A stretch of DNA of 64,000 nt, from positions 4,499 through 68,498 of the forward strand of contig JBQCHY010000056.1 of NCBI GenBank assembly GCA_051954235.1, written 5' to 3'. Source of the stretch: Xanthobacteraceae bacterium. GTDB lineage: Bacteria > Pseudomonadota > Alphaproteobacteria > Rhizobiales > Xanthobacteraceae. The notes below the pieces were generated by a model. That model did not search any database. It worked only from the letters and a program-made list of their open reading frames with translations, and was not told the DNA's origin. Shown in pieces: positions 1,811 through 29,768 of this stretch. The position numbers were made by a program, and so were the translations under genes. The stretch's first letter is position 1. Every line of letters begins with the position of its first letter.

Positions 1811-2464
1811 ACAGACCTGGCATATGAAAGCGACCGATCAGAAGCTCACCAAGGCCATAGCCAATCGACGTCGTCCACATAACCTAGCCGCCCAAAACCT
1901 CGACCTGCATCACCTAATGGCCTCAAAGTTAGAAAGGCCAAGCACTTCGCGAATTGCCAAACGCCACGCAGGACGGGGGCTCATCTGATGTGCACTCTGC
2001 GACCATCGAAACGGGCGATCCTACCTTCACCCAGTATATGATCGCACAAAGTTCACCGATCTTCACTACCTCTCAAGCCCGGCGTTGAATCTAAACTACA
2101 TTCTTGGGAACCCGTCATCTCTAAATTCTCCTACAGTCTAAAAGCTGCACCTTATTTCTGACGAACAATTACAGGAACTATGCCCAGACACACTATCTGG
2201 ATGAACTCCCTTTCTGAGAAACGAAAACGGGGCACCGCTATGCTGCTAGCTGACTTCAAGAGACGCTGTTCTCACTATGCGCTTGATCCTGGCATCCTGG
2301 AAATCACCCCTACAAATTAAGCATAGGCCTACTGCTTCCAGCCTTTATCTCGGGCCGAAGGGTTTGCCGATTGACATTCTCGCGCGAGCATCAACGAGCC
2401 CGCCTAAAACCCACCAATCCATCTCTCGCACAGAGTGCCGAGACGCTGGATGCCGAGGCATGTG

Positions 2465-4838: not shown

Positions 4839-4846
4839 AGATAAAC

Positions 4847-5959: not shown

Positions 5960-6057
5960 TTGAAACCCTACCGCCTGACTAATGTACTCACGTTATCGAA
6001 ATCTACCATGAGACATATCGCTGCCACCTAGAAATCGGGCGTGTAACGGCGCTCCGA

Positions 6058-7320
6058 TCAAGATGAGCATCGGCTATTAAAAGTCGAGTCCTGAAACAAC
6101 AGCTGAAGGTAGTTTTCGGCCAGAACTTTATAATTTCGGTTGCGCAACAGCCAAACTCGCCCAGCATCCCCCATCGCGACGCGAATTTTGGTTGGCATAT
6201 CGACGTAGCGCAGAATTTCTGTGCGCAGCGCCTCTACATCGCCAGTGGGAACGAAACTCCCGCACCCCGCTTCATCGATCATTGAAGGATAACCCGAATA
6301 GGATGCAACTATCGGCTTGCCCGAAAGCATATAATCGATCACTTTATTAAGGGATTGGCCGTATTTCCAGATTTTTGATGTATGCGTCGAAAAATATAGC
6401 AGATCGCTGCGCGTCAACACCGCCTGAACCATAGTCTTTCTGACCGCAGGAGCGAAAGTGATGTTTGGCAAATCGGCGCAGAGTTCCTGATACTTAGTCT
6501 TAAGATCTCCGTTTCCTACAATCAGAAAATGGATGTTCGAATATCCTTGTAGGGCGCGAGCGCAAGCCAATAGAGTATCAAGTGCATTCGTAATGCCGAT
6601 AGACCCAGCATGGCAGACAACGAACTTGTCTCGAGGTATGTATCTGGCTTCATAGTCGGATTCCAGCGGTTCGGCGGCCGCCAGCGACACTTCGTCTACA
6701 CCCATCGGAATACAATGAACCGTTCGTCTTTGACCGAGAACCTCGGCAACATGGCTTCCGAGGTTGGGCATTGTTCCGACGATCACGTCCGCATGACGAT
6801 AACCCAAACGCTCGATCAGTCCTAAGCCAATAACAAAAGGGTTACGCTTGCCGTAACCTCCCTCCTCTGTCATCGTTAAGGGCCAAATGTCGCGAATCTC
6901 AAATACGAGACGACATCCGTGCCGAACGCGTAGAAGAAATCCGTTTACGATGGTCAACAGTGACAGACTCGACACGATCACCACATCGGGACGGCCAAAT
7001 TGCTGCTTTGGAAGGCGCCATAGGCGCCATTCAAAGTCGAGCCAGCTCAGGATCCGACGTAACGATTTGGCGGCTCCATATTTGAGCGTCTTTACCCAGC
7101 AGACTTCGACGCCATCGATGATATCAATGTGATGGCTTCCCTCGAACTGCGGCGCGGTCACCAAATGGTTTGAATCCGACGTCAGGATAACGCCGCGGTG
7201 CCCCATACGCACGAACTCGCGCATGATGAGAAACCCTCGCGCGCCGACCGATCCAGACATCGGCGGCACAGCGTATTTGGAGACGTACCAGATATTCGCG
7301 GGCAAGTCCTTACGCCTCAT
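6058..7320 (-). CDS. GT4-family glycosyltransferase (WbuB-like)
   Basis: IWYVSKYAVPP...GARGFLIMREF is the N-terminus typical of WbuB-type GT4 enzymes. The start is taken at the MRRK Met (7318-7320), which overlaps the upstream gene's stop by 11 nt. Confidence 0.8.
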   Translation of the reverse strand: MRRKDLPANIWYVSKYAVPPMSGSVGARGFLIMREFVRMGHRGVILTSDSNHLVTAPQFEGSHHIDIIDGVEVCWVKTLKYGAAKSLRRILSWLDFEWRLWRLPKQQFGRPDVVIVSSLSLLTIVNGFLLRVRHGCRLVFEIRDIWPLTMTEEGGYGKRNPFVIGLGLIERLGYRHADVIVGTMPNLGSHVAEVLGQRRTVHCIPMGVDEVSLAAAEPLESDYEARYIPRDKFVVCHAGSIGITNALDTLLACARALQGYSNIHFLIVGNGDLKTKYQELCADLPNITFAPAVRKTMVQAVLTRSDLLYFSTHTSKIWKYGQSLNKVIDYMLSGKPIVASYSGYPSMIDEAGCGSFVPTGDVEALRTEILRYVDMPTKIRVAMGDAGRVWLLRNRNYKVLAENYLQLLFQDSTFNSRCSS

Positions 7321-9130
7321 ACATTCGCGGAACAGAATTGACGACGCGGATGACTTCGGAAAAATCCAGACCCACCGCGTCAAGATACCATTTTATATTT
7401 GGGTAACGTGGCCGGTTCTCATCTTGAATTAACGCCATCGCTTCTTGACGGGTCATCTGTCCCTCACGGATCTGATTACTGCGGAACGTATCATGCTCCG
7501 TAAATCCCGCGATCGTGTAATAGATATAGTTATAAAAAGCAGCGGTTCCATCACCGATGCGCCAAGTTGTAGATGTGTCGGGAGCTTTCTCCCAATCGTA
7601 TCTTGCAAGACACTGATCTACGATCCGTTCGTCCCATGTCCAGTAATCGAAGATATGAAAATAGTCAGACTTCTCCGCAAAACTGCGGTAGTACTCGCCC
7701 GAGAAAGTATCCCATAGCGAGCTGTTGAAATAGCTTGGACTTTGTAACATCGCCTTGAGACGTAGGTACTGATAGCGCAATTGTTTCATCCCGCCACTGA
7801 TGTAAACACGCTCTTCCGCAAAATCCGGTGGCACACCGAGAAACCCTGCCTTGAAATGCGTGACTTCGAGCGGATTGACACCCCAGAGATTCAGCGTAAT
7901 TCCCGTCTGGCGCTTGACGGTTTCAACATGGCGGAAAAAATGCTTGTCGCCGGCGGTCAATATGCTGACCATGCCGAGATTGGGTGACTTCAACCAAGCG
8001 CGAAGGTTCATCGCGATGTTCTCGCGCTTCTTGGCAATATCATCGGCGACAATGATATTTTCAACGCCCAGCTCTGCCGACATTCGGCTGATATTTCGCC
8101 GCCCAAGGTCTGTTACCATACCCCAATCATACGTATAGGTCACAGGCTTCATTCGAAGCTCGTTAACGATCAAATGTAGTGCGTAGCAGCTGTCACGACC
8201 TCCTGAAAAAGGAACTACACAATCGTTACCGAACTTACGGCGGAACGGCTCTACCAAGGCAAACAACTGTTCTTTCGGTTTCGGCTTATTGCGCGGCTTA
8301 TAGTGAAGGCAATAATTGCAAACACCCTCTTCGTTGAATCGGATGAAGGGCATGGTTTCCGGTAACACACATCGCGTGCAACGACGCAGTTGTGGCTGAG
8401 GATATACGAGAAGCTTTTCTTCCGACGACGAAAGTGTGAGCGGCGGTATGAGATTGGCACGATGTCCGGCTTTATTGACGATGACATAGTCACCAGTTGA
8501 CACCGGAATATCGAGAACAACTGCATCACGCTTAATCTGCCTAATTTCCTCGCACTTCAATTCGGTCAATGGAAACTCTTCAGAGGAGAAATACGTTGCC
8601 GCTGACTTCTTACCGATATAGAGGCTACCATTATTGGAGAATAGGCAAAGCTTCCCCAACCTCGGCAGCGCAAGCGCGCAAGCGACAACACCGACGCATA
8701 AATCAAGCACTCGAGCAGGAATATCCTCAACACGGCCGCCCTGCGCCAGATGCAGAGCAGCGATCGCGGGAATCACTTCGGTATCGATTTGCAGCTCTGG
8801 GACCTTGCCTATCTTGTTCCAGATTGACTCGTGATTAACAATGATGCCGTTGTGCAAGACGCAGACATCCTCGCGAAGTACCGGCTGATTGTCATTAAGA
8901 CCATTAGTAATCAGCCGGCTGTGGCCCATCACAACGCTAGTCACATAGGGACGCGATTCGCTCAGTAGGCGAGAGATGGGATAGTCAGCTCGGTGCACCT
9001 GATAGATGCCATCCTGCCAGAACAGCAGCCCACTGGAATCTTTGCCGCGCTGCTGGGCGTGCGTAGCCAACCTTACGAGGTCGTCCTTCACCGACGAATC
9101 CGCCGAGATTATCCCAAAAATTCCACACAT
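7310..9130 (-). CDS. Fusion protein: class-II (Ntn) glutamine amidotransferase domain plus N-acetyl-sugar amidotransferase (WbuX/WbpG/PseA-type PP-loop ATPase)
   Basis: The N-terminus is MCGIFGI (catalytic Cys2) plus a GATase-II-like 200 aa. Then come a zinc ribbon CTRCVLPETMPFIRFNEEGVCNYC, a PP-loop VVPFSGGRDSCYAL and RIGDGTAAFYNYIYY, all typical of the WbuX family. Confidence 0.85.
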   Translation of the reverse strand: MCGIFGIISADSSVKDDLVRLATHAQQRGKDSSGLLFWQDGIYQVHRADYPISRLLSESRPYVTSVVMGHSRLITNGLNDNQPVLREDVCVLHNGIIVNHESIWNKIGKVPELQIDTEVIPAIAALHLAQGGRVEDIPARVLDLCVGVVACALALPRLGKLCLFSNNGSLYIGKKSAATYFSSEEFPLTELKCEEIRQIKRDAVVLDIPVSTGDYVIVNKAGHRANLIPPLTLSSSEEKLLVYPQPQLRRCTRCVLPETMPFIRFNEEGVCNYCLHYKPRNKPKPKEQLFALVEPFRRKFGNDCVVPFSGGRDSCYALHLIVNELRMKPVTYTYDWGMVTDLGRRNISRMSAELGVENIIVADDIAKKRENIAMNLRAWLKSPNLGMVSILTAGDKHFFRHVETVKRQTGITLNLWGVNPLEVTHFKAGFLGVPPDFAEERVYISGGMKQLRYQYLRLKAMLQSPSYFNSSLWDTFSGEYYRSFAEKSDYFHIFDYWTWDERIVDQCLARYDWEKAPDTSTTWRIGDGTAAFYNYIYYTIAGFTEHDTFRSNQIREGQMTRQEAMALIQDENRPRYPNIKWYLDAVGLDFSEVIRVVNSVPRMYEA

Positions 9131-9384
9131 CGTTCGGTTCCTACAAAGCAGCTCTGTAATTCAAATCCATCATCTAGGCGTATCCTACGCCGTCTTGCTC
9201 TTGGGTACCCAGGCATTTAACTGCTTATTCATCATGACACTCAACCTCACAGGTAAGACGACCAACCGCTTCCGGCGATCGCACGAATTCTGTCGACAAA
9301 TACTTTGGTTCCGACAACGAATCGCCAGTGCGACCTCGGTTTGGTCAACAAAACCGGCAACGCCAAAAACACCCGAGGAACCGT

Positions 9385-10683
9385 TCACCCTTCGATTCTG
9401 ACGTAAGCACCGTCGGGGGGCGACCGAATGCGATCGCGCGACGTCAAATTTTTAGGGCTACCGTCATTCCCAGTCTGTCGATGATCAATCGAATCGACAC
9501 TCTGAACCCGCCGATTCAAAAGAACCCCCCAACCTAAACCGATCACCGACCAGAAAACCGGGGCGGAAAAAGTAATCAAGAGCAATGAGAATGTGTTCAA
9601 ATAGAGCGCAAAGCGCGCCATGGGTACATCGTGATTAAAGAGCCGAATAATCGACTTACCGAACGCAACTAAGGCCAGTCCGTAGTATAGAACAAACCCG
9701 AAGTATCCATATGTCACCCATGCCGATAGCGCATTGTGAGCATATTCTCCTGCTCCGGTCAGTCGGTCGCCCCCGAATAATCCGGATAGCGGATTTTGGA
9801 CAATTTGCTCCCACGCTATCCCGCTCAGTTCTTGTCGAGCATTCCACGAGGTTGAGTTACCGAGATCGAAGATTTCAAGCTGGCGGGATGCTAAGAGCAT
9901 ATCGAAGCTGAGAAATAGAATCGCCGACGCGCAGCCCCCCAAGAGAACTAAAAACAAAAGATTAGTACTCCTTCTCAGAGAAAGGAGGGCTTCAAGCACG
10001 ACAACGCAGAATATGAAACCAAAAAGCTCAGCGCGGGCAGCTGCAAGAAAGACAATGCAAGCACATGGCAGGATAACAAGAACTCTAAAATATACCGTAC
10101 CGATGAAAGATAGGGCCAGCAAAGCTGTCAATGTTATGGACCTGGAAAATCCTTGATAAGAAGCGGTATTCAAATTGCTAAAATATCGGCTGGGGTCGAA
10201 GCTTAGCCATTGATAATCAGTGAAGTAAGCGGTCAACAGACTCATCAGGGCTAGAAATACCCATATCGCGGCCCTAAACTTACGTGAATTCTCACTCATG
10301 TATGCGCCGATAGACAGAAGCGCAAACAAGGATACGACTAGTACCAAGCTATCGGAAACGGCCGCGATTGCCACATTCGCGGGCTCCGTTTGGGAGCCCA
10401 TCCAAAACGTCCACACAATACAATAGACCAAAAAAATCATTATGAATCCAGCAAACGCCTCGTTCAGCGCCAAGCTGATCCACTTCGACAAGAATACAGT
10501 CGAGAATAGTAGCGAAATAAGTATCGATATCTCGACATTTGACCCGCTATCAACTTCAATTAGTTGAGCAGCTCTGGCCAGATTCCACAAATAAAATCCG
10601 GGGAAAAGCAATATAAATCCGATATTCGCGACTCGGTTTGCCAAAACCCGACTGCTTTCTTTCCACGAGACACTTCGTTTCAT
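9385..10683 (-). CDS. Wzy-like O-antigen/EPS polymerase (polytopic membrane protein)
   Basis: The 432-aa protein has 10 or more hydrophobic segments and a periplasmic-loop motif GAGEYAHNALSAWVTYG (Wzy_C-like). It lies inside the glycan operon. Confidence 0.65.
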   Translation of the reverse strand: MKRSVSWKESSRVLANRVANIGFILLFPGFYLWNLARAAQLIEVDSGSNVEISILISLLFSTVFLSKWISLALNEAFAGFIMIFLVYCIVWTFWMGSQTEPANVAIAAVSDSLVLVVSLFALLSIGAYMSENSRKFRAAIWVFLALMSLLTAYFTDYQWLSFDPSRYFSNLNTASYQGFSRSITLTALLALSFIGTVYFRVLVILPCACIVFLAAARAELFGFIFCVVVLEALLSLRRSTNLLFLVLLGGCASAILFLSFDMLLASRQLEIFDLGNSTSWNARQELSGIAWEQIVQNPLSGLFGGDRLTGAGEYAHNALSAWVTYGYFGFVLYYGLALVAFGKSIIRLFNHDVPMARFALYLNTFSLLLITFSAPVFWSVIGLGWGVLLNRRVQSVDSIDHRQTGNDGSPKNLTSRDRIRSPPDGAYVRIEG

Positions 10684-10734
10684 CGTAGTGCGAAGCCACA
10701 GCGAGACATTCGGAGGTCAGAACTTGTCTTGGAG

Positions 10735-12672
10735 TTATACAGAATCCGCAGCGACAAGCTCTTCGAAGTTCTCCTCACCTATTCCTGTGTCGATATGAGC
10801 GCGATACCATCGAACATAGTTTACCCACCGCCAGATCTGCCAATTGAACGGCGCTCGATTAGTTACGATCCTATTAAACGACTCGAGAAGAGCGTCGGCG
10901 TTAATGAATGGAATGCTGGCGGCGTCCTGCAACCACTGCCGAATTACCGGGGTAATGCTTAGCAGCCAGTCCCGTTCAGGCGTTGCAAAGCCAATCTTAT
11001 CACGTCGATCCAGAACTACATCTGGTACAATGCCTCGCATAGCGGCCCGAAAGACACGCTTCGTTTCTCCGGCCTCTGATATTAGATAGCTCTCTGGGAG
11101 AGAGAACAGCAATTCCGCCATCGGATTGGTAAGAAATGGAACGCGGCTTTCAATCGAGAATGCCATCGAATTCCTGTCGCCGTGCCGGAGCAAATGTGGC
11201 AGACCCCGCCGCTGGAGGCTGTCGGCGAGTTGTTCTACGACGCGCCGTCCTCTGTTGTCGCGCGATAGAGTTGGCCGCTTCTCCTGAAAGATGACCCCGG
11301 CATCACGTAACAGATCGGTTTTGAGCCAGCCTGGTTGAAAATCGCGTCCAAGTACCTTGCGAGCCTGACGATACAGCCGGTCTGGAAAAACAGAGTGCCC
11401 GAGATACATCCACGCCTGACGATAAGAGCGACCGGGCCAGTTACCCCAATCCCGTGCAAAGCGGTGCATAGCGCCATATTGCCCACTTTCCAAGAGACTC
11501 AACAAGCGCTGGCCTGGATAGCCATCATAACCGGCAAGAAGTTCGTCAGCCCCCTGTCCATCAAGGGTAACAGTTATACCATTCTCACGAGCTAGTTTGA
11601 AAACACGATACTGCGCATAAATGCTTGTACTACCGAAAGGCTCACCCTGAGCCTTGATAAGCGCATCCAAATCCCGAATCAATTCACTAGCGTCCGCTTT
11701 GACCTTATGCGGAATCGCGCCTGTTGTTTGGTTGACCAAATCAACCCATTTCTCCTCCGAGACCTTATCATCCTCGGCAATATAGCTAAACGTATGGATT
11801 GGTATTGAGGGATCGACATGGCGCATTGCACACACGACGGCGGAAGAATCGATCCCCCCCGACAACGCTGCTCCAAGTGGCACATCGCTCCTCAGATTCA
11901 GCCGGACGTTATAGAGAAATTGTTCACGGACAGCCTCTACTGCCTGACCAAAGGTAAACTTCGATACCTCTCGCGTCGGCGGGCGCCACCAGATCTCAGG
12001 CTGTGCTGATGTAGTCGAATCGATATCTACTTCAATAAGGGTTCCAGGCAATAGATGCCGCACGCCTTCCACAAAAGTGCGCTCCTGGCTATCATAATCG
12101 CCATGTACCAGATAGTCGTAAGCACGCTGCAAATCTGGTCTCGCCCGTAAACCTCGCAGCTCCAGTAGGGCTGCCTGCTCCGAGGCGAATCGGAAACCGC
12201 TCTTGTCCCGATCATAGAACAAAGGCTTGATACCAAAAGCGTCGCGTACGCATGTCAACTTGTTGCTGCGGCGATTGTGAACAGCAAAGGCAAACATGCC
12301 CTCAAGCCGGGGCAGGCAAGATTTACCCCACTCGGCCCAGGCAGCCAGCAGAACCTCCGTGTCAGATTCCGAATAAAACTGACGCCCCGCAGCCCGCAAC
12401 TCCTCACGTAGTTCGCGATAATTGTAGATCTCACCATTGAATACTATGGCCAACTGCTGATCCGGGCTCAGCATAGGCTGATGCCCTTTCTCGCTGAGAT
12501 CAATGATCGAAAGACGGTTCTGACCGACAGCCACAACGCCTCGCGCACATCTTGCGATCGCGTGCCCGCTATCGTCCGGGCCTCGATGGCGCAAGAGTGC
12601 TAGGGCCGAAAGGATGCGCCCCTTGACGGGAGCTTGGTCGTCACACCATAGCCCGCCAACGATCCCGCACAT
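10735..12672 (-). CDS. Asparagine synthase (glutamine-hydrolysing) paralog, AsnB/WbpS-type amidotransferase
   Basis: It has MCGIVGG Ntn Cys2 (start taken at 12670-12672), an SGGIDSS PP-loop, and full-length AsnB architecture. Confidence 0.9.
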   Translation of the reverse strand: MCGIVGGLWCDDQAPVKGRILSALALLRHRGPDDSGHAIARCARGVVAVGQNRLSIIDLSEKGHQPMLSPDQQLAIVFNGEIYNYRELREELRAAGRQFYSESDTEVLLAAWAEWGKSCLPRLEGMFAFAVHNRRSNKLTCVRDAFGIKPLFYDRDKSGFRFASEQAALLELRGLRARPDLQRAYDYLVHGDYDSQERTFVEGVRHLLPGTLIEVDIDSTTSAQPEIWWRPPTREVSKFTFGQAVEAVREQFLYNVRLNLRSDVPLGAALSGGIDSSAVVCAMRHVDPSIPIHTFSYIAEDDKVSEEKWVDLVNQTTGAIPHKVKADASELIRDLDALIKAQGEPFGSTSIYAQYRVFKLARENGITVTLDGQGADELLAGYDGYPGQRLLSLLESGQYGAMHRFARDWGNWPGRSYRQAWMYLGHSVFPDRLYRQARKVLGRDFQPGWLKTDLLRDAGVIFQEKRPTLSRDNRGRRVVEQLADSLQRRGLPHLLRHGDRNSMAFSIESRVPFLTNPMAELLFSLPESYLISEAGETKRVFRAAMRGIVPDVVLDRRDKIGFATPERDWLLSITPVIRQWLQDAASIPFINADALLESFNRIVTNRAPFNWQIWRWVNYVRWYRAHIDTGIGEENFEELVAADSV

Positions 12673-12813
12673 CGCCACCTCACTTTTTGTGCGACCGGCA
12701 TTTTGGCGACATTCGACAGAATGCACCTGCATGAATGCGGTACCACAGCGGCGGTTGCTAACAGATAATTGAGAAAGTTTGCAAGCGCGAAACTCAAGAG
12801 GTCTGAAGGACCG

Positions 12814-14632: not shown

Positions 14633-16555
14633 ATGATCCGTTTTATGAGTCCAAAACTCACAACACGCAATTATTTGATCGCCCTTCATGACACGCTAGC
14701 GACCGCGCTCGCGGTGTTGATCAGTTTTTTTCTTCGCTTTGAAGGCAGCGCCCTCGAAACACGCCTCCCCGTCCTTTTGTGGATACTCATCCCCTTTCTG
14801 GTTCTGAGCATTATCGTCTGCTATTTCTCTGGTTTGACCACCACGAAATGGAGGTTCGTCTCTCTTCCAGACGTATTCAATATTATTCGCACCGCGACCA
14901 TCCTAACGGTGGCTTTATTGGTGCTGGACTATATTTTTGTCGCGCCGGATATGGGCGACCGCTTCTTTCTCGGCAAAACAACGATCATTCTCTACTGGTT
15001 TCTTGAAGTCTTTTTCCTGAGCGCGTCCCGCTTCGCCTATCGTTACTTTCGCTTCACTCGCACCCAAAATAAAGCACGTGTCGGCGACGCCGCGCCAGCC
15101 TTGTTGATCGGCTTGGCCGCTGACGCAGAGATCGTGCTGCGAGCCTCCGAAAGTGGCGCGATCAAGCAACTTCGGCCGATCGGCATTTTGTCGCCGTCAT
15201 CCGCGGATCGCGGGCAGGTGATCCGACGCACGCCTGTCCTTGGCGGAGTCGAAGACCTAACCGAGGTCGTCAATGACTTCACGAAGCGGGGGACGTCGAT
15301 CAAGCGAGTCATCTTGACTCCGTCAGCGTTTGAACCCGGCGTCCCGTCCGATTCAATTTTGCTTGCTGCTCGAAAGCTCGGCCTGATCGCAAGCCGCCTT
15401 CCCTCTCTTGAGGCCGGAGAAGCACCGCAACTAAAGCCGGTTGCCGTTGAGGACCTTCTTCTGCGTCCGAGCCACAAGATCGACTATAGCCGTCTCGAAG
15501 ATCTGGTTCGCAACAAGGCGATCATCGTTACTGGCGGCGGTGGCTCGATCGGATCGGAAATCTGCGATCGTGTCGTTACCTTTGGTGCTGCTCGCCTCTT
15601 GATTATCGAGAATTCGGAGCCGGCACTATATGCAGTTCAGGAAGCGTTGGTCGCCCGGCAGACGAATGCCACAATCGAAGGCCGCGTGGCGGATATTCGT
15701 GACCGCGCGCGAATCCACCGCCTGATGCAGGAGTTCAAGCCGAACATCGTGTTCCATGCCGCCGCCCTCAAACATGTTCCTATTCTGGAGCGAGATTGGA
15801 GTGAGGGCGTCAAAACCAATATTTTTGGGTCAATCATCGTTGCGGATGCCGCAGCAGCCTCAGGCGCCGATGCCATGGTGATGATTTCGACGGACAAGGC
15901 CGTCGAGCCAGTTTCCATGCTCGGCCTGACCAAACGCTTTGCTGAAATGTATTGTCAAGCGCTGGATCGCGAACTCGCGGCACGAACCAGCGGCAAATTG
16001 CCGATGCGCTTGATATCGGTCCGGTTCGGAAATGTGTTGGCGTCGAATGGTTCCGTCGTACCGAAATTCAAGGCTCAGATTGAGGCGGGCGGACCGGTCA
16101 CGGTCACTCATCCTGATATGGTTCGATACTTTATGACAATCCGGGAGGCCTGCGACCTGGTCATTACGGCCGCGACCCATGCCCTTTCGCCCACCCGCTC
16201 GGACGTCTCGGTTTACGTCCTCGATATGGGACAACCGGTCCGGATCGTTGAGCTCGCCGAACGCCTGATTCAACTTTCGGGTCTACAGATCGGGCATGAC
16301 ATCGATATCGTCTTTTCAGGAATTCGCCCTGGCGAACGGCTCAATGAAATCCTGTTTACGGATCAGGAACCGACCATAGACATTGGTATCTCCGGCGTAA
16401 TGGCCGCCAAGCCAAACGAATCATCGATGCTCGAACTGAGAAAATGGATCGCCGTTCTCGAAAAAGCCGTTGCAGACGACGAGCGAGGCGTCGTCAAAGC
16501 AACGTTGACCGAGGCGGTTCCAGAGTTCGGCCACCCGGCTTCGGAGCTCCATTAG
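14633..16555 (+). CDS. Membrane-anchored UDP-GlcNAc 4,6-dehydratase (WbpM/PglF/CapD family)
   Basis: Four N-terminal TMs are followed by an SDR domain with IIVTGGGGSIGSE (Rossmann) and the MISTDKAV motif. The 640-aa length is typical of the family. Confidence 0.9.
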   Translation: MIRFMSPKLTTRNYLIALHDTLATALAVLISFFLRFEGSALETRLPVLLWILIPFLVLSIIVCYFSGLTTTKWRFVSLPDVFNIIRTATILTVALLVLDYIFVAPDMGDRFFLGKTTIILYWFLEVFFLSASRFAYRYFRFTRTQNKARVGDAAPALLIGLAADAEIVLRASESGAIKQLRPIGILSPSSADRGQVIRRTPVLGGVEDLTEVVNDFTKRGTSIKRVILTPSAFEPGVPSDSILLAARKLGLIASRLPSLEAGEAPQLKPVAVEDLLLRPSHKIDYSRLEDLVRNKAIIVTGGGGSIGSEICDRVVTFGAARLLIIENSEPALYAVQEALVARQTNATIEGRVADIRDRARIHRLMQEFKPNIVFHAAALKHVPILERDWSEGVKTNIFGSIIVADAAAASGADAMVMISTDKAVEPVSMLGLTKRFAEMYCQALDRELAARTSGKLPMRLISVRFGNVLASNGSVVPKFKAQIEAGGPVTVTHPDMVRYFMTIREACDLVITAATHALSPTRSDVSVYVLDMGQPVRIVELAERLIQLSGLQIGHDIDIVFSGIRPGERLNEILFTDQEPTIDIGISGVMAAKPNESSMLELRKWIAVLEKAVADDERGVVKATLTEAVPEFGHPASELH

Positions 16556-16887
16556 GTATACCTGAAACGACCAGGTGCGATACAACAGCCTCGCCGCTCC
16601 GGTAATTCTAAAATGCTTTGCCCCGGAAGCGGGACACTCCAATGCGGGAAACGCCCTACCGCGACATATTGTGCGACCTCAGTCAAACTGTTATGGCATC
16701 GCAATAATAGGGTTCGGGCGCTGTTGCGACCAAGCATCCAGAACACGACGGACAGGCGTGCCTCAGGAAGCGTTACCGAATGTAAGCGATTGTTACCAAT
16801 CTAGTTTCTTGATTTTTTCAAGAAGATTCGGCAGAGCATCCAGCGTCTATTTCTCGATTCTGGTTGGGGTCATCAAAGGTTCAATCA

Positions 16888-19217
<2,330 letters not shown>

Positions 19218-19218
19218 C

Positions 19219-19827
19219 ATGACAGATACAAAAGGTCAGATGAGAGAAGATCCCCGCTTCCCGGGCGTATCAATTCATGAATCGGCGTATGTCGATCATG
19301 ATGTCGCCATCGGGCCGGGGTCTCGCGTATGGCACTTCGTTCATATTCTGCCCAAGGTCACCATCGGCAAGGATTGCATCTTCGGCCAGAACGTCATGAT
19401 TGGCCCGGACGTCAAAATCGGCAATGGCTGCAAGGTGCAGAACAACGTTGCTCTCTACGCCGGCGTCGAACTCGCCGACGATGTCTTTTGCGGACCATCC
19501 TGCGTTTTTACCAACGTGAACAATCCGCGCGCCTTTGTCAGTCGTAAGGACGAGTTTCGGCGAACGCCAGTTGGCAGAGGGGCGAGTATCGGCGCCAACG
19601 CAACGATTGTTTGCGGCCATTCACTCGGCGCCTATTGCTTCATCGCGGCCGGTGCTGTCGTCACTACGGATGTCCCCGACTTCGCGCTCATGGCAGGCGT
19701 TCCAGCCCGACGTATCGGTTGGATGAGCCGAGAAGGCGAGAAATTGGGCTCAGATCTTCGATGCCCGCGGACCGGTGAACGCTATCGCGAAACGCCGGAT
19801 GGCCGCTTGGAGGTAATTTCCGAATGA
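19219..19827 (+). CDS. wbpD: UDP-GlcNAc3NA 3-N-acetyltransferase (left-handed beta-helix, WbpD/WlbB-type)
   Basis: It has hexapeptide repeats (IGPGSRV, IGKDCIF, IGPDVKI, IGNGCKV) and a C-terminal MAGVPARRIGWMS. The position between wbpB and wbpE homologs fits. Confidence 0.8.
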   Translation: MTDTKGQMREDPRFPGVSIHESAYVDHDVAIGPGSRVWHFVHILPKVTIGKDCIFGQNVMIGPDVKIGNGCKVQNNVALYAGVELADDVFCGPSCVFTNVNNPRAFVSRKDEFRRTPVGRGASIGANATIVCGHSLGAYCFIAAGAVVTTDVPDFALMAGVPARRIGWMSREGEKLGSDLRCPRTGERYRETPDGRLEVISE

Positions 19828-20942
19828 GCAAGACATCGATTGATTTCATCGATCTCAAATCTCAATATCGTACGCTCAAGACATCGATCGACGATCGCAT
19901 TCAGGCCGTTCTGAATCATGGCCAATACGTTATGGGCCCCGAAGTCGGCGAGCTCGAAGACAAGCTTGCAGCCTTCGTCGGCGGCGGCCAATGCATCACC
20001 GTTGCGTCCGGGACCGAGGCTCTGCTGATTGCGTTGATGGCGCTGGGAGTCAAGGCTGGCGACGAGGTGATCACATCGCCGTTTACATTTGCTGCAACGG
20101 CGGAAGTTATAGCTCTGGTTGGCGCGACGCCGGTTTTTGTCGATATCGAACCCGATACCTGCAACATCGACGTGCGCCGCATCGAAGCTGCCATAACTCC
20201 CAAAACGCGCGCGATCATGCCGGTTTCCCTTTACGGGCAAGCACCGGACATGGACGACATCAATGCGATTGCCGATCGTCACAATCTCACCGTTATCGAC
20301 GACGCGGCGCAAAGTTTTGGCGCAACCTATCGAGATCGTCGAAGCTGCGCCTTATCGACGATCGGCTGCACCAGCTTTTTCCCCAGCAAGCCTTTGGGGT
20401 GCTATGGCGATGGCGGCGCCATATTCACCACGGACGACTCGCTTGCCAAAGCGATGCGGGAGATCCGGGTCCATGGTCAGGAGCGTCGCTATCACCACAC
20501 CCGGATCGGTGTCGGTGGCCGCATGGATACCATTCAATGCGCCGTCGTGCTTTCAAAGCTTGAGCGCTTCGATTGGGAGTTGGAACGGCGCGAGGAAATC
20601 GCGCAGCGCTATATTCGATCGCTGTCCGGCTCCAACGCGGTTACGCCGCCTGTGGTGCGACCCGACCGGACATCCGCCTGGGCGCAATTTACCGTCCAGG
20701 TCGAGCGCCGAGACCACGTCATTAAGTCGCTGAACGACCACGGCGTCCCCACCGCCATTCACTACCCCATTCCGCTTCACCTGCAACCGGCCTACCGGGA
20801 CCTTTGCCGCATATCGGGAAGCCTCTCTAATGCAGAGCACGTGGCCGACCGTGTCTTCAGCCTACCGATGCATCCTTATCTTTCCGAAGCGACACAAGAC
20901 ACAATCGTTGCCCGTCTTCTGGATTCGGCCGCGGCGTCCTGA
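19824..20942 (+). CDS. wbpE: UDP-3-oxo-GlcNAcA aminotransferase (DegT/DnrJ/EryC1 family, WbpE/WlbC-type)
   Basis: It shows the DegT-family pattern (GPEVGELEDKLAAF..., SFFPSKPLGCYGDGGA with the PLP Lys). The ATGA start/stop overlap with wbpD suggests translational coupling. Confidence 0.8.
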   Translation: MSKTSIDFIDLKSQYRTLKTSIDDRIQAVLNHGQYVMGPEVGELEDKLAAFVGGGQCITVASGTEALLIALMALGVKAGDEVITSPFTFAATAEVIALVGATPVFVDIEPDTCNIDVRRIEAAITPKTRAIMPVSLYGQAPDMDDINAIADRHNLTVIDDAAQSFGATYRDRRSCALSTIGCTSFFPSKPLGCYGDGGAIFTTDDSLAKAMREIRVHGQERRYHHTRIGVGGRMDTIQCAVVLSKLERFDWELERREEIAQRYIRSLSGSNAVTPPVVRPDRTSAWAQFTVQVERRDHVIKSLNDHGVPTAIHYPIPLHLQPAYRDLCRISGSLSNAEHVADRVFSLPMHPYLSEATQDTIVARLLDSAAAS

Positions 20943-21167: not shown

Positions 21168-21770
21168 GTGCTCAAGCAAGCGATCGATATCATTGTCGCC
21201 GTCACGGCCTTGCTGCTGCTCTGGCCCGTCATTCTCGCTTTGACGATTGCGGTTCGCCTGTTCCTTGGAACACCGGTTTTCTTCAAGCAAACGCGAATTG
21301 GCCTCAACGAAAAGCCGTTCCAGATCATCAAATTCCGAACGATGACGGATCAGCGAAACGACGCTGGTGAACTTTGCCCGGACAGCGTGCGCCTCACTCG
21401 TTTCGGAAAATTTCTGCGCTCCACCAGCCTCGACGAACTGCCCGAACTCTACAACATCCTGCGAGGCGAGATGAGTCTCGTGGGTCCGCGGCCGCTCCTC
21501 CCCGAATATCTCCCGCTCTACAATGCCCGTCAGGCCAAACGCCATGAGGTTCGGCCGGGATTGACTGGCTGGGCTCAAATTAATGGTCGCAATGCCCTCG
21601 ACTGGAAGGACCGCTTTGATATGGACGTCTGGTATGTCGAGCACCGCTCGCTCCTTCTCGATCTCAAAATCATTGGCAAAACCGTGCTCACCGTTCTTCG
21701 CCGTGAGGGAATCAATTCAGCCGAGAGCGCCACGATGGCGCCGTTCCGAGGAAACGATCCGTGTCAGTAA
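21168..21770 (+). CDS. Small monotopic phosphoglycosyl transferase (PglC/WbaP C-domain family), initiating sugar-1-P transferase
   Basis: The 200-aa protein has a re-entrant helix, then PVFFKQTRIGLNEKPFQIIKFRTM and GEMSLVGPRP motifs. It uses a GTG start. Confidence 0.85.
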   Translation: MLKQAIDIIVAVTALLLLWPVILALTIAVRLFLGTPVFFKQTRIGLNEKPFQIIKFRTMTDQRNDAGELCPDSVRLTRFGKFLRSTSLDELPELYNILRGEMSLVGPRPLLPEYLPLYNARQAKRHEVRPGLTGWAQINGRNALDWKDRFDMDVWYVEHRSLLLDLKIIGKTVLTVLRREGINSAESATMAPFRGNDPCQ

Positions 21771-22420
21771 AGAGGGGCCGCCTTCTCATTATCGGCGCGA
21801 GCGGACATGGGCGCGTGGTCGCGGATTGCGCCCGCGCACTCGATCGGTGGACAGAGATCATCTTCTTCGACGATAGACATCCGAATATCGACCACAATTT
21901 CAAATGGCCCGTGCGTGGCAGCATCGCGTCTATCCAGGAGGCTGCTGGCACGAACGACGAGGTTTTTGTTGCGATTGGCAACTGCGCCACACGCGTGGCA
22001 ATGCTGACTCGTTTGCGGGGGATGAATCTAAAACTCGCCACGCTTGTCCATCCCCACGCAAGTGTCAGTACCGACACAAAAATTGAATATGGCACTATTG
22101 TGGTCGCCGGAGCGGTGGTGAATATCGGTGCCACGATTGGGTTTGGCGGCATCATCAACACGGGTTCATCTGTCGATCACGACTGTGTTCTCAACAGCGG
22201 CGTTCACGTCTGCCCTGGCGCACGATTGGCGGGAGACGTTTGTGTCGGTGATCGAAGCTGGATCGGCATCGGCGCTGTCGTGCGGCAGGGTCTCCGAATC
22301 GGTGCAGATGTTGTCGTCGGCGCGGGCGCGGCAGTCGTAACAGATATATCCGATGGGCTGACGGTCGCTGGGGTACCAGCCCGTCCGCTGGCCGTTCGCC
22401 AAGGCAACAGAGGTTCGTGA
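21761..22420 (+). CDS. PglD/NeuD-family amino-sugar N-acetyltransferase
   Basis: An N-terminal Rossmann-like LLIIGASGHGRVVAD is followed by C-terminal hexapeptide repeats, which is the NeuD/PglD architecture. It overlaps the upstream gene by 10 nt. Confidence 0.8.
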   Translation: MSVKRGRLLIIGASGHGRVVADCARALDRWTEIIFFDDRHPNIDHNFKWPVRGSIASIQEAAGTNDEVFVAIGNCATRVAMLTRLRGMNLKLATLVHPHASVSTDTKIEYGTIVVAGAVVNIGATIGFGGIINTGSSVDHDCVLNSGVHVCPGARLAGDVCVGDRSWIGIGAVVRQGLRIGADVVVGAGAAVVTDISDGLTVAGVPARPLAVRQGNRGS

Positions 22421-22426
22421 TAGATC

Positions 22427-23602
22427 ATGCTGAATTCTCCCTTCGCGCCCTGGCCGAGTTTTTCGCAAGAAGAGGCTGATGCCGTCTCGCGCGTTCTGCT
22501 GTCGAACAAGGTCAACTATTGGACGGGCACCGAGTGCCGAGAGTTTGAGCGGGAGTTTGCGACGTGGGCAGGCTGCGCCAAAGCAATCAGCCTTGCTAAC
22601 GGCACCGTTGCGCTGGACCTTGCTTTGAAGGCGCTGGATATCGAGCCTGGCAGCGAAGTCGTGGTTACTCCCCGCTCCTTCATTGCCTCGGCTTCAACGG
22701 TCGTGAATGCGGGGCTCGTTCCCATCTTTGCCGATATCGACCGAGACTCGCAAAACCTGACCGCAGAAACGATCCGACGTGTTCTGACGGACCGCACGCG
22801 CGCCATCCTGTGCGTCCATCTCGCTGGCTGGCCGTGCGACATGGAATCCATCATGTCGCTGGCCCGTGAACGAGGCCTGCTCGTCATTGAGGATTGCGCC
22901 CAGGCGCATGGCGCAACCTACCGTGGACGCTCAGTGGGCTCCTGGGGCGATATCAATGCGTGGTCGTTCTGCCAGGACAAGATCATCACCACCGGCGGCG
23001 AAGGCGGAATGATCACAACCGATCGCGAAGAGCTTTGGGATAAAGCCTGGGCTTACAAGGACCACGGCAAGTCGTGGGATGCCGTCTATCAACGTCAGCA
23101 TCCACCGGGTTTCCGTTGGCTTCATGAGAGCTTCGGCACCAACTGGCGCATGATCGAAATGCAGGCGGTTATTGGCCGCATCCAACTCGGGCGAATGCCG
23201 GAGTGGCATGCCCACCGCACGCGGAATGCCGAAGCCATCAATGCCGCCGCTCGCGCCTGCCCTGCCCTGCGCGTCCCGGAAGTCCCGAGCGACATCCAGC
23301 ACGCGTGGTATCGTTGCTACGTTTTCGTGCGTCCCGAGCGGCTACGCGCAGACTGGAGCCGAGATCGTATCGTTCAAGAGATCAATGCATCCGGCGTGCC
23401 CTGTCTCCAGGGATCGTGTTCTGAAATGTATCTCGAGAAAGCGTTTGAAAATGCGGGTCTGAAGCCAGCCCAACGGCTTCCCGTCGCCCATGAACTTGGA
23501 GAAACCAGCCTCGCCTTCCTCGTTCATCCCACCCTAACCGCGCAGGAAATCGATAAAACCTGCAATGTCCTCCTCGACGTGATGAGCAGGGCAACATCCT
23601 AG
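22427..23602 (+). CDS. DegT-family sugar aminotransferase (PglE-like, 4-keto-6-deoxy-HexNAc aminotransferase)
   Basis: It shows the DegT pattern (NYWTGTECREFEREFA..., SFCQDKIITTGGEGG with the PLP Lys) and is adjacent to PglC- and PglD-like genes. Confidence 0.8.
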   Translation: MLNSPFAPWPSFSQEEADAVSRVLLSNKVNYWTGTECREFEREFATWAGCAKAISLANGTVALDLALKALDIEPGSEVVVTPRSFIASASTVVNAGLVPIFADIDRDSQNLTAETIRRVLTDRTRAILCVHLAGWPCDMESIMSLARERGLLVIEDCAQAHGATYRGRSVGSWGDINAWSFCQDKIITTGGEGGMITTDREELWDKAWAYKDHGKSWDAVYQRQHPPGFRWLHESFGTNWRMIEMQAVIGRIQLGRMPEWHAHRTRNAEAINAAARACPALRVPEVPSDIQHAWYRCYVFVRPERLRADWSRDRIVQEINASGVPCLQGSCSEMYLEKAFENAGLKPAQRLPVAHELGETSLAFLVHPTLTAQEIDKTCNVLLDVMSRATS

Positions 23603-29688: not shown

Positions 29689-29768
29689 ATCGTCACTGAA
29701 GTAAGAAATCGCCTTTTCCACAGCCATGATCCGGATTCTCTCTTTCTTTTTCAAAGGTGACTGCAAGC

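What the first reader, a model, noticed from the sequence alone, without database searches (positions are those of the whole stretch)
7310..9130. Glutamine amidotransferase (class II) fused to a WbuX/WbpG-type N-acetyl-sugar amidotransferase
WbuX/WbpG/PseA-type PP-loop enzymes are proposed to convert N-acetyl to acetamidino groups. In the classical loci they sit next to HisH/HisF paralogs (for example WbuY/WbuZ) that supply ammonia. No HisH/HisF-like gene is in this window. Instead the PP-loop domain carries an N-terminal MCGIFG Ntn-type glutaminase domain of about 230 aa in the same polypeptide. This would be a different, self-contained solution to ammonia delivery for acetamidino-sugar synthesis.
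Basis: partly seen in the sequence, partly recalled or inferred. Interest (0 to 1): 0.7.

Follow-up and report, generated by a model that had tools for sequence, protein, structure and literature searches.

The report
Glutaminase-fused acetamidino-sugar amidotransferase
One 606-residue enzyme in a bacterial surface-polysaccharide gene cluster joins a glutamine-splitting domain to the ATP-dependent domain thought to turn sugar N-acetyl groups into positively charged acetamidino groups; the fusion is real, belongs to a large, widespread and mislabelled family, and mostly occurs without the separate HisH/HisF ammonia-supply proteins.

Summary
Window 7310-9130 (-) encodes one 606-aa protein. Residues 1-~227 form a class-II (Ntn) glutaminase with every catalytic residue. 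Residues ~248-606 form an N-acetyl-sugar amidotransferase (NASAT; WbuX/WbpG/PseA) PP-loop domain with the Cys4 zinc motif. No HisH/HisF gene is in the window. The fusion is not a one-off: 468 representative clusters (50% identity) match at E<=1e-30. At least 567 species genomes across many phyla carry it, and its NASAT domains form a single clade in a limited NJ tree. Public records call it "hypothetical", "GlcN-6-P synthetase", "AsnB" or "QueC", often with a start that deletes Cys2. In 60 of 80 related loci no HisH/HisF lies nearby. Where HisH/HisF occur, they abut a separate standalone NASAT (Fisher p=2.5e-8). Three Bacteroidota loci are exceptions, with HisH-HisF2 directly upstream of the fusion. 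An E. coli O-antigen cluster holds only WbpA/B/D/E/I-type genes, two GT4s, wzx/wzy and the fusion. This parallels P. aeruginosa O5 and points to a 2,3-diacetamido-uronic acid substrate. The chemistry (acetamidino versus carboxamide) and an ammonia tunnel remain untested. Verdict: a new variant of a known system, of moderate interest.

The parts
7310..9130 (-). Fused gene: class-II glutaminase plus NASAT-type PP-loop amidotransferase, 606 aa
9139..9142 (-). AGGA ribosome-binding site 8 nt upstream of the ATG; an in-frame TGA at 9163-9161 bounds the ORF
9125..9127 (-). Codon of Cys2, the N-terminal nucleophile of the glutaminase after Met removal
   Evidence: nearly invariant; missing only in truncated gene calls
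8450..9130 (-). Glutaminase (Ntn, GlmS-like) domain, residues 1-~227. Carries R28/D31, R72, N94-G95 and D116
8390..8449 (-). Inter-domain linker, residues ~228-247, where pLDDT dips to about 69
7313..8389 (-). NASAT-type PP-loop ATP pyrophosphatase domain, residues ~248-606
8309..8380 (-). Tetracysteine (zinc) motif C251-x2-C254 ... G-V-C271-N-Y-C274
   Evidence: sequence; motif definition in PMC10607449; invariant
8189..8206 (-). PP-loop S309-G-G-R-D-S314
   Evidence: sequence; invariant
6058..7224 (-). Partner GT4 glycosyltransferase, 388 aa, 85 nt downstream. Conserved neighbour of the fusion
   Evidence: immediately downstream in 34 of 80 loci; 48% identical to the E. coli partner
9385..10683 (-). 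Unassigned 432-aa protein in the same operon-like array, with no Pfam family hit; its hydrophobic sequence and position suggest a Wzy-type polymerase (inference)
10735..12672 (-). AsnB-type glutamine amidotransferase, a candidate for uronamide formation. The true start is probably at the MCGIVGG methionine
16864..20942 (+). WbpA/WbpB/WbpD/WbpE-like genes, which make a UDP-2,3-diacetamido-2,3-dideoxy-hexuronic acid. This is the most likely substrate source
14633..16555 (+). PglF/WbpM-like 4,6-dehydratase
21168..23602 (+). PglC/PglD/PglE-like genes (initiating phosphoglycosyl transferase, N-acetyltransferase, aminotransferase), giving a diNAcBac-type sugar. This is the alternative substrate source

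Best explanation
The gene encodes a self-sufficient, glutamine-dependent N-acetyl-sugar amidotransferase.

Proposed mechanism:
1. The N-terminal Ntn domain uses the free amino-terminal Cys (Cys2 after Met removal) to hydrolyse glutamine and release ammonia.
2. The C-terminal PP-loop domain, stabilised by a Cys4 zinc site, uses ATP (giving AMP + PPi) to adenylate the carbonyl oxygen of a sugar N-acetyl group.
3. The ammonia displaces AMP, giving an acetamidino group (sugar-NH-C(=NH)CH3).

The most likely substrate here is the nucleotide-activated 2,3-diacetamido-2,3-dideoxy-hexuronic acid made by the neighbouring WbpA/B/D/E genes. The conserved downstream GT4 would then transfer the product.

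In the classical system a standalone NASAT (WbpG/WbuX/PseA/AglX) gets ammonia from a HisH glutaminase through a HisF-like partner. Here a non-homologous class-II glutaminase fused in cis does that job.

Shown: the architecture, the catalytic and motif residues, the folds, the family size, the single clade of fused domains in a limited NJ tree, and the gene-neighbourhood statistics.
Inferred: glutaminase activity, the ammonia transfer path, the acetamidino product, and the identity of the sugar.
For: Domain identity.

Conserved residues: glutaminase residues C2, R28, R72, N94-G95 and D116, the Cys4 motif and SGGRDS are invariant or nearly so across 31 and 82 homologues.

Model: AF2 gives pLDDT 89.8 and pTM 0.90, which is taken to mean a confidently packed two-domain protein.

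Family size: 468 clusters at 50% identity match at E<=1e-30, and nearly all of the best 150 are 600-690 aa. At least 567 species genomes carry it. The fused NASAT domains form a single clade in an NJ tree.

HisH/HisF: none in the window. 60 of 80 related loci lack them. HisH/HisF presence tracks a separate standalone NASAT (15 of 20 loci with one, against 5 of 60 without; p=2.5e-8). The median gap is 4 bp to the standalone NASAT and 4.6 kb to the fusion.

E. coli Z1323CEC0003 O-antigen cluster: it contains WbpB/A/D/E, wzx, wzy, GT4, a WbpI-like epimerase, the fusion and the partner GT4. It has no NASAT, no dedicated HisH/HisF and no AsnB. This matches the gene logic of P. aeruginosa O5, where WbpG with HisH2/HisF2 makes ManNAc3NAmA (own knowledge; WbpG role quoted in PMC10607449).

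Bacteroidota loci L085/L086: the fusion occupies the NASAT slot behind HisH and an AglZ/HisF2 'acetamidino modification protein' (312.8 bits, cutoff 310). This ties it to acetamidino chemistry by synteny.

AsnB: AsnB-type genes coexist with the fusion in the window and in 11 of 48 full-flank loci. Uronamide formation therefore already has a candidate enzyme there.
Against: No biochemical or genetic test exists for any member of the fused clade that I could find.

The C-domain scores 128.6 bits against the TIGR03573 cutoff of 203.2 and is only 23% identical to a canonical WbuX. Its reaction or regiochemistry could therefore differ.

The fusion coexists with a complete classical trio in 15 of 80 loci, so it is not simply a replacement for one.

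In L085, L086 and L053, HisH-HisF2 lie directly upstream of a fusion whose glutaminase residues are intact. This is unexpected if the fusion needs no partner.

Neither WbpA/B/D/E nor PglC-F is universal in the neighbourhoods, so the substrate is not fixed.

Confidence: 0.6

Rival explanations
1. The architecture and glutamine-derived ammonia are the same, but the chemistry differs. The PP-loop domain adenylates a carboxylate (for example C6 of the hexuronic acid) or another acyl oxygen. The product is then a uronamide or some other amide, not an acetamidino group.
For: PP-loop enzymes adenylate carboxylates as well as amide-type oxygens (AsnB, NadE, QueC; own knowledge). The C-domain is a divergent clade below the TIGR03573 cutoff. 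Uronic-acid dehydrogenase genes are frequent neighbours (WbpA-like in 24 of 48 full-flank loci, and the main common neighbour in actinobacterial loci). Coexistence with classical acetamidino trios in 15 of 80 loci suggests a non-redundant job. Both products differ from the substrate by the same -0.984 Da (replacing O by NH, or OH by NH2), so mass alone would not have told them apart.
Against: AsnB-type enzymes, the usual uronamide makers, coexist with the fusion in the window, in 11 of 48 full-flank loci, and twice next to it on the S. carbinolicus plasmid. The fusion sits in the NASAT slot of a HisH-HisF2 'acetamidino modification' pair in L085/L086. The whole NASAT domain, including the C-terminal S..IR.G..TR.EAL motif, aligns with standalone NASATs at 99.9% probability. 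Several loci have PglC-F but no uronic-acid genes within 10 kb.
Confidence: 0.2
2. The N-terminal domain is not the working ammonia source and acts as a regulatory, sensing or vestigial module. Ammonia would come from the medium or from HisH/HisF-type proteins encoded elsewhere.
For: HisH-HisF2 lie directly upstream of the fusion in three Bacteroidota loci. The rest of the source genome is outside the window and must contain housekeeping hisH/hisF.
Against: The catalytic Cys2 and the Arg, Asn-Gly and Asp residues are invariant or nearly so across homologues at 35-94% identity, including the loci next to HisH/HisF2. That conservation is not expected for a dead domain. 60 of 80 loci have no HisH/HisF nearby, and where HisH/HisF are present they abut a standalone NASAT. 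The E. coli cluster has only the housekeeping his operon, with hisA between hisH and hisF.
Confidence: 0.07
3. The fusion is an assembly, frameshift or gene-calling artefact that joins two separate genes.
For: One related contig (L018) has the gene split into two ORFs. Public gene calls vary in length: 583, 584 and 593 aa.
Against: The single ORF recurs in hundreds of independent assemblies, including complete chromosomes of E. coli and Neopusillimonas maritima. The L018 split is at residue ~408, inside the NASAT domain and not at the domain border. The length variants are start-site miscalls. AF2 packs the two domains with pTM 0.90.
Confidence: 0.01

Closest known systems
Classical acetamidino trio: NASAT (WbpG / WbuX / PseA / PtmG / AglX, TIGR03573) with a HisH-type glutaminase (WbuY/HisH2/AglY) and a HisF-like protein (WbuZ/HisF2/AglZ)
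   Same: The synthetase domain is homologous over about 300 columns (hhalign probability 99.9%). It shares the PP-loop SGGxDS, the Cys4 zinc motif and the fold of 8wex. It sits in the same kind of surface-glycan gene clusters, including WbpA/B/D/E contexts as in P. aeruginosa O5.
   Different: The ammonia source is a fused class-II (Ntn) glutaminase, not a separate class-I HisH working through a HisF barrel. The NASAT domain is a separate clade with 23% identity, below the TIGR03573 cutoff. It often coexists with the trio rather than replacing it.
Asparagine synthetase B (AsnB) and AsnB-like polysaccharide amidotransferases (e.g. WbpS)
   Same: The domain logic is the same: an N-terminal Ntn glutaminase with Cys as the first residue, followed by a PP-loop ATP pyrophosphatase domain in one chain. 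Foldseek aligns 1ct9 and 8sue across both domains.
   Different: There is no Asn_synthase (PF00733) domain; the NCBIfam AsnB model scores 15.8 bits against a cutoff of 499. The C-domain carries a Cys4 zinc ribbon and NASAT motifs. The inter-domain packing differs (rmsd about 22 A, TM about 0.3). A genuine AsnB homologue is encoded two genes away.
GlmS (glucosamine-6-phosphate synthase), the name most public records give this protein
   Same: The N-terminal glutaminase domain is closest to that of GlmS (1xff: TM 0.70, 25% identity).
   Different: There are no SIS isomerase domains. TIGR01135 scores 57 bits against a cutoff of 418, and only residues 2-197 match. The GlmS label is a mis-annotation.
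FGAM synthetase (PurL/PurQ) and GMP synthetase: glutamine-dependent conversion of an amide-type carbonyl to an amidine
   Same: The proposed chemistry is the same: ATP activation of an amide-type oxygen followed by attack of glutamine-derived ammonia. Like these enzymes, NASATs exist in both split and fused glutaminase/synthetase forms (own knowledge; GMPS fused and split forms noted in the QueC-family preprint).
   Different: The synthetase folds or families are unrelated, and they use class-I glutaminases. The substrate here is a sugar N-acetyl group.

Membership tests
NASAT / N-acetyl sugar amidotransferase (TIGR03573; WbuX, WbpG, PseA) | PP-loop SGGxDS | tested here: met
   S309-GGRDS-314; invariant in 31 and 82 homologues. 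Motif definition from PMC10607449.
NASAT / N-acetyl sugar amidotransferase (TIGR03573; WbuX, WbpG, PseA) | Tetracysteine zinc motif CxxC...[GN]xCxxC | tested here: met
   C251-TR-C254 ... G-V-C271-NY-C274; invariant.
NASAT / N-acetyl sugar amidotransferase (TIGR03573; WbuX, WbpG, PseA) | Score at or above the curated TIGR03573 cutoff (203.2 bits) | tested here: not met
   128.6 bits, E 3.6e-37. A canonical WbuX in L004 scores 400.7. The protein is therefore a superfamily relative or sister clade, not a member of the curated subfamily.
NASAT / N-acetyl sugar amidotransferase (TIGR03573; WbuX, WbpG, PseA) | Fold of the solved NASAT (8wex) | tested here: met
   Foldseek E 2e-13, TM 0.60 normalised to the target, 20% identity. 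hhalign against standalone NASATs gives probability 99.94% over 299 columns.
NASAT / N-acetyl sugar amidotransferase (TIGR03573; WbuX, WbpG, PseA) | Adjacent HisH/HisF-type partner genes | tested here: not met
   None in the window. Absent from 60 of 80 related loci. Adjacent to the fusion without a standalone NASAT only in L085, L086 and L053.
NASAT / N-acetyl sugar amidotransferase (TIGR03573; WbuX, WbpG, PseA) | Converts a sugar acetamido group to acetamidino | not testable with these tools
   Needs an enzyme assay or glycan NMR.
Class-II (Ntn) glutamine amidotransferase | Catalytic Cys immediately after the initiator Met | tested here: met
   The protein starts MCGIFG. The start is supported by an RBS and an upstream stop. 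M1-C2 is conserved in at least 90% of 82 homologues.
Class-II (Ntn) glutamine amidotransferase | Glutamine-binding and oxyanion residues (GlmS R26/D29, R73, N98-G99, D123) | tested here: met
   R28/D31, R72, N94-G95 and D116 align to these in 1xff. All except D31 are invariant in the 31- and 82-sequence alignments. D31 is invariant in the 12-sequence and 7-sequence alignments of closer homologues.
Class-II (Ntn) glutamine amidotransferase | Pfam GATase_6/GATase_7 above the gathering score, and the Ntn fold | tested here: met
   33.5 bits against 27, and 27 bits against 25. 1xff TM 0.70 normalised to the target.
GlmS (public annotation) | Two C-terminal SIS sugar-isomerase domains; TIGR01135 at or above 418 bits | tested here: not met
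   57 bits, with only residues 2-197 matching. No SIS Pfam hit.
Asparagine synthetase B (public annotation of some members) | Asn_synthase domain PF00733; TIGR01536 or NF006949 above cutoff | tested here: not met
   No PF00733 hit. NF006949 scores 15.8 bits against 499. The neighbouring true AsnB scores 408 bits.

The most novel reading that the evidence does not exclude
The fused clade is not just a WbpG equivalent with a built-in glutaminase. It may carry out a distinct, undescribed sugar amidation: a different position, acyl group or carboxylate, possibly on a lipid-linked intermediate handed to its dedicated GT4. Alternatively, its occurrence directly behind HisH-HisF2 in some Bacteroidota could mean that the HisF-like protein of acetamidino systems does more than channel ammonia. 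Either outcome would revise the accepted model of how acetamidino sugars are made.
Probability: 0.2. Interest if true: 0.7.

Novelty: new variant of a known kind. Interest (0 to 1): 0.55.

Why it matters
Acetamidino groups turn acidic surface sugars into zwitterionic or neutral ones. They shape O-antigen, capsule and flagellin-glycan antigenicity as well as phage and tailocin recognition.

The enzymology of the NASAT step is still essentially unreconstituted. The only structure paper states that little is known about function (PMC10607449).

A single-polypeptide, glutamine-dependent version removes the need to assemble a three-protein complex. It could therefore make the reaction directly testable in vitro.

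The family is large: thousands of 90%-identity clusters and at least 567 species. It is systematically mis-annotated as GlmS, AsnB or QueC, and often with a start codon that deletes the catalytic cysteine. A correct family definition would fix many genome annotations. It would also improve prediction of acetamidino (or related) sugars from gene clusters, including rare E. coli O-antigen types.

Tried and rejected
- Literature searches for a prior description of the fusion used these terms: N-acetyl sugar amidotransferase; acetamidino/glutamine amidotransferase/WbpG; acetamidino/HisH/HisF; WbuX; acetimidoyl/amidotransferase; ManNAc3NAmA; AglX/AglZ. None described this architecture.
- The E. albertii O1 paper (pmid 28494314), which could link the E. 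coli-type cluster to a solved acetamidino-containing structure, is not held. Related papers and one supplement gave no gene table.
- T. forsythia Tanf_01265 is a 605-aa 'AsnB' proposed for Pse5Am (PMC6120980). It could be a family member, but its sequence was not retrievable, so it remains an unverified lead.
- Tunnel and distance analysis was not possible because model coordinates are not exposed to the scripting tool.
- The hypothesis that second 'fusion-like' ORFs next to HisH/HisF were extra copies of the fusion was rejected. They are standalone NASAT paralogues that match only residues ~245-575 at 30-50 bits.
- The idea that the fusion derives from AsnB was rejected: there is no Asn_synthase signal and the domain packing differs.
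- The artefactual-fusion idea was rejected.
- I tried to fix the substrate from neighbourhoods. Neither WbpA/B/D/E nor PglC-F is universal, so only a ranked guess is possible.


Full report
OBSERVATION

The window holds a 606-aa ORF at 7310..9130 on the minus strand that begins MCGIFG. The ATG at 9130 is the first start codon after an in-frame TGA (9163-9161), and AGGA lies 8 nt upstream.

Pfam finds GATase_6 (33.5 bits, cutoff 27) and GATase_7 (27 bits, cutoff 25) in residues 65-185. It finds nothing in the C-terminal 350 residues.

NCBIfam matches TIGR03573 (WbuX, N-acetyl sugar amidotransferase) over residues 250-571 at E 3.6e-37. The score of 128.6 bits is below the curated cutoff of 203.2. 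NCBIfam also matches the first ~200 residues of GlmS starting at position 1.

Among solved structures, the protein matches the Legionella NASAT 8wex and the GlmS glutaminase domain 1xff.

DOMAIN ANATOMY

The alignment to 1xff puts these residues on the GlmS glutaminase catalytic set:
- Cys2 on Cys1
- Arg28/Asp31 on Arg26/Asp29
- Arg72 on Arg73
- Asn94-Gly95 on Asn98-Gly99
- Asp116 on Asp123

These residues, apart from Asp31, are invariant or nearly so in a 31-sequence alignment at 35-67% identity and in an 82-sequence alignment. Asp31 is invariant in the alignments of closer homologues.

The C-terminal half carries the two signatures that the LpNASAT structure paper gives for the family (PMC10607449). 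The tetracysteine motif is C251-x2-C254...G-V-C271-N-Y-C274. The PP-loop is S309-GGRDS-314. Both are invariant.

An AlphaFold2 model built on 82 sequences has mean pLDDT 89.8 and pTM 0.90. Foldseek matches its N-domain to 1xff (TM 0.70 normalised to the target, 25% identity). It matches its C-domain to 8wex (TM 0.60, 20% identity). AsnB structures align over both domains, but with rmsd near 22 A. No solved chain reproduces the whole architecture; query-normalised TM is at most 0.40.

A profile-profile comparison of fused-clade and standalone NASAT domains gives probability 99.94% and E 2.5e-36 over 299 columns at 23% identity. Shared motifs are FD..GVCN.C, DC.VP.SGG.DS.Y and a C-terminal S..IR.G..TR.EAL.

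GENOMIC SETTING IN THE WINDOW

The source is a Xanthobacteraceae MAG. Housekeeping proteins from the window are identical to NCBI proteins of a 247.5-kb contig.

The gene lies in an operon-like minus-strand array:
- Wzz
- AsnB-type amidotransferase
- an unassigned 432-aa protein with no family hit, possibly Wzy-like
- the fusion
- GT4
- GT4

On the plus strand, nearby, are these genes:
- a PglF/WbpM-like dehydratase
- WbpA/WbpB/WbpD/WbpE-like genes, the pathway to UDP-GlcNAc3NAcA
- PglC/PglD/PglE-like genes
- further polysaccharide genes

No HisH or HisF was found. Pfam scans of the plausible ORFs of at least 180 aa found none. phmmer with a WbuZ/HisF and a HisH query against all stop-to-stop ORFs of at least 60 aa found nothing at E<=0.01. 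The fusion is the only NASAT-type gene in the window. The window also lacks a WbpI-type 2-epimerase.

THE FUSION IS A LARGE, OLD FAMILY

The word-indexed search returned 120 full-length hits of 584-615 aa at 72-94% identity. They are named 'hypothetical protein' or 'glucosamine 6-phosphate synthetase'.

The exhaustive search of 1.84 billion representatives found 468 clusters at E<=1e-30. Nearly all of the best 150 are 600-690 aa, cover both domains, and are 37-67% identical to the query.

A profile search brought up a ~677-aa sister subfamily in Bacteroidota, Ignavibacteria and a Methanoperedens MAG. It carries similar uninformative names, including 'asparagine synthetase B'.

They span Alpha-, Beta-, Gamma- and Epsilonproteobacteria, Desulfuromonadales-type lineages, Bacteroidota, Actinomycetota, Bacillota, Planctomycetota, Verrucomicrobiota and Gemmatimonadota. 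The best 80 are still 61-76% identical to the query. Such high identity across many phyla suggests horizontal spread of the cassette (inference).

In a neighbour-joining tree, 58 fused NASAT domains form one clade that contains none of 22 standalone NASATs. The tree has no bootstrap support, and the standalone sample is limited to neighbours of fusions.

Within these limits, the fusion looks like a single ancient event rather than an assembly artefact. The only split copy seen (L018) breaks inside the NASAT domain, not at the domain border.

HisH/HisF CO-OCCURRENCE

I built iterated HMMs for HisH, HisF, the NASAT domain and the glutaminase domain, and classified the 80 fetched loci:
- 60 have no HisH/HisF in their flanks.
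- 15 have HisH/HisF together with a separate standalone NASAT of 380-440 aa. These NASATs match only residues ~245-575 of the fusion at 30-50 bits. Those loci hold a classical trio in addition to the fusion.
- 5 have HisH/HisF with no standalone NASAT detected.

HisH/HisF presence tracks the standalone NASAT: 15 of 20 loci with one, against 5 of 60 without (Fisher p=2.5e-8). The median gap from HisH/HisF is 4 bp to the standalone NASAT and 4.6 kb to the fusion.

One coexisting trio was checked in detail (L004). Its NASAT scores 400.7 bits on TIGR03573 and sits in a NeuB/CMP-transferase (legionaminic-type) cassette. The fusion in that locus is 23% identical to it.

The exceptions matter. In the Bacteroidota loci L085 and L086 (and probably L053) the gene order is GT4, HisH, AglZ/HisF2 'acetamidino modification protein' (312.8 bits, cutoff 310), fusion. 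No standalone NASAT was detected in the flanks, and the fusion's glutaminase residues are intact. The fusion there occupies the NASAT slot of a HisH-HisF-NASAT trio.

I read this as in-situ displacement of a standalone NASAT, which supports functional equivalence. It also leaves open that HisF2 has a role beyond ammonia delivery.

WHICH SUGAR

The most constant neighbour is a ~390-415-aa GT4 directly downstream. It is immediately downstream in 34 of 80 loci and present in 33 of 48 loci with full flanks.

PglC/D/E/F-like genes are present in 21-33 of those 48 loci, and WbpA/B/D/E-like genes in 17-24. Neither set is universal.

The cleanest case comes from two of 5,426 complete E. coli genomes. 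In strain Z1323CEC0003 the galF-gnd O-antigen cluster contains only:
- WbpB-, WbpA(TviB)-, WbpD- and WbpE-like genes
- wzx and wzy
- a GT4
- a WecB/WbpI-like 2-epimerase
- the fusion, which PGAP names 'glucosamine 6-phosphate synthetase' (67% identical to the window protein)
- the partner GT4 (48% identical to the window's partner GT4)

That cluster has no standalone NASAT, no AsnB, no PglC-F and no dedicated HisH/HisF. The nearby hisH and hisF belong to the housekeeping his operon, with hisA between them.

This is the gene logic of the P. aeruginosa O5 B-band cluster. There, WbpA/B/D/E/I make UDP-ManNAc3NAcA, and WbpG with HisH2/HisF2 accounts for ManNAc3NAmA (own knowledge; WbpG role quoted in PMC10607449).

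The E. coli O-antigen review records ManNAc3NAcA only in O180, made by GnaA/MndA-D. The O-antigen of E. albertii O1 'resembles P. aeruginosa O5' (title cited in PMC10622841). EAOg1 cross-reacts with O180 antiserum without being genetically related (PMC6927306). I could not read the O1 paper, so the link to a solved acetamidino structure is a lead and not evidence.

Two plasmid-borne copies in cultured bacteria show the same pattern. In Agrobacterium sp. RAC06 and Solidesulfovibrio carbinolicus the gene lies among GTs, with AsnB-type genes nearby and no HisH/HisF. It is named 'hypothetical protein' and '7-cyano-7-deazaguanine synthase'.

MECHANISM

The best-supported model has three steps. The Ntn domain hydrolyses glutamine. 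The PP-loop domain adenylates the carbonyl oxygen of a sugar N-acetyl group (ATP to AMP + PPi). Ammonia then displaces AMP to give the amidine. This is the chemistry proposed for NASATs (PMC10607449) and is analogous to FGAM and GMP synthetases.

Action at the nucleotide-sugar level is plausible. Acetimidoyl forms are abundant among CMP-nonulosonates in Campylobacter (SugarBase preprint).

The following were not shown here: glutaminase activity, coupling between the two sites, the product, and the substrate. The pTM of 0.90 says only that the relative domain position is predicted with confidence.

RIVALS

1. Same architecture but a carboxamide or other amide product (confidence 0.2). This is plausible because the clade is divergent, often accompanies uronic-acid genes, and coexists with classical trios. 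Against it are the frequent co-presence of AsnB-type enzymes, the HisH-HisF2 synteny, and full-length NASAT homology.
2. The glutaminase domain is not the working ammonia source (0.07). This is disfavoured by strict conservation of the catalytic residues.
3. Artefactual fusion (0.01). This is effectively excluded.

COMPARISON AND NOVELTY

The protein works like a WbpG/WbuX/PseA-type NASAT with its own glutaminase. It is built like AsnB (Ntn glutaminase plus PP-loop domain), but it is neither AsnB nor GlmS.

For membership of the curated TIGR03573 subfamily, the score criterion was tested and not met. The protein should therefore be filed as a sister clade within the NASAT superfamily.

I found no paper describing the architecture and no curated model that names it. 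Tannerella forsythia Tanf_01265, a 605-aa 'AsnB', was proposed without test to make the Pse acetamidino group (PMC6120980). It may or may not belong to this family.

Swapping or fusing glutaminase modules is a familiar theme among amidotransferases, so a specialist would be interested rather than astonished. The value lies in three things: the size of the unrecognised family, the systematic mis-annotation (including start codons that delete Cys2), and the prospect of a one-protein system for reconstituting acetamidino formation.

I rate it a new variant of a known kind, with interest 0.55.

Noticed in passing
window 10735-12732 (-): The AsnB-type amidotransferase (Asn_synthase + GATase_6/7; TIGR01536 408 bits) is two genes upstream of the fusion. 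The listed ORF has a 20-residue overhang before MCGIVGG. Because the Ntn cysteine must follow the initiator Met, the true start is probably ATG 12672. It probably makes a uronamide.
   Followed up: partly
window ~47000-63500: A second polysaccharide locus. It holds Acyl_transf_3, Wzz/GNVR, a Crp-type regulator, a WbaP-like Bac_transf+CoA_binding_3, a nucleotidyltransferase, a PIG-L deacetylase, an epimerase, an RmlC-like epimerase, a sugar C-methyltransferase (58556-59818), an SDR and a DUF4910/M28-like protein. It suggests a C-methylated deoxy-sugar glycan.
   Followed up: no
window 2000-12000 and 30000-36000; ~4302-4787 (+): GC is 0.49-0.55 in these parts of the polysaccharide region, against 0.60-0.63 at 36-46 kb. 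An HTH_21 (IS3-type transposase N-terminus) fragment lies beside the cluster. The region looks horizontally acquired, which fits the fusion's 61-76% identity across phyla.
   Followed up: partly
public records of homologues (MGN6309943.1; WP_236759418.1 in L090 12064-13815; P0082): Gene calls of 593, 583 and 584 aa start downstream of the real ATG and delete the catalytic Cys2. Product names vary: hypothetical, glucosamine 6-phosphate synthetase, asparagine synthetase B, 7-cyano-7-deazaguanine synthase.
   Followed up: yes
L085 8457-11827; L086 3220-6589; L053 143-4393: In these Bacteroidota loci HisH and an AglZ/HisF2 'acetamidino modification protein' lie directly upstream of the fused gene. 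No standalone NASAT was detected in the flanks, and the fusion's glutaminase residues are intact. This is unexplained redundancy, or a displaced NASAT.
   Followed up: partly
L046 2091-3281, L050 67-1575 and 2404-3357, L063 6231-8114, L080 4995-6128: Actinobacterial loci carry standalone NASAT paralogues a few kb from the fusion, with no HisH/HisF within 10 kb. Their ammonia source is unclear.
   Followed up: no
L082 7398-9962; L072 3815-6208: ORFs of 855 and 798 aa carry a NASAT-like region after an unassigned N-terminus of ~400-480 residues. These are other NASAT fusions of unknown type, next to the glutaminase fusion.
   Followed up: no
L004 1-5800 (also L005, L006, L009): A nonulosonic-acid cassette (NeuB, PglD-like, CBS-nucleotidyltransferase, CMP-transferase) with a canonical WbuX (400.7 bits), WbuZ/HisF and HisH lies about 5 kb upstream of the fusion plus GT4 module. 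Two amidotransferase systems therefore sit in one glycan cluster.
   Followed up: yes
window 29757-30752 (+) and 33951-34934 (-): A FemAB/GNAT-like acyltransferase and a formyltransferase sit in the same cluster. They hint at further N-acyl variety (aminoacyl or formyl groups) on the amino sugars.
   Followed up: no
L018 671-2494: The fused gene is split into ORFs of 411 and 196 aa at residue ~408, inside the NASAT domain. This is a frameshift, either a pseudogene or a sequencing error, not a natural two-gene form.
   Followed up: partly
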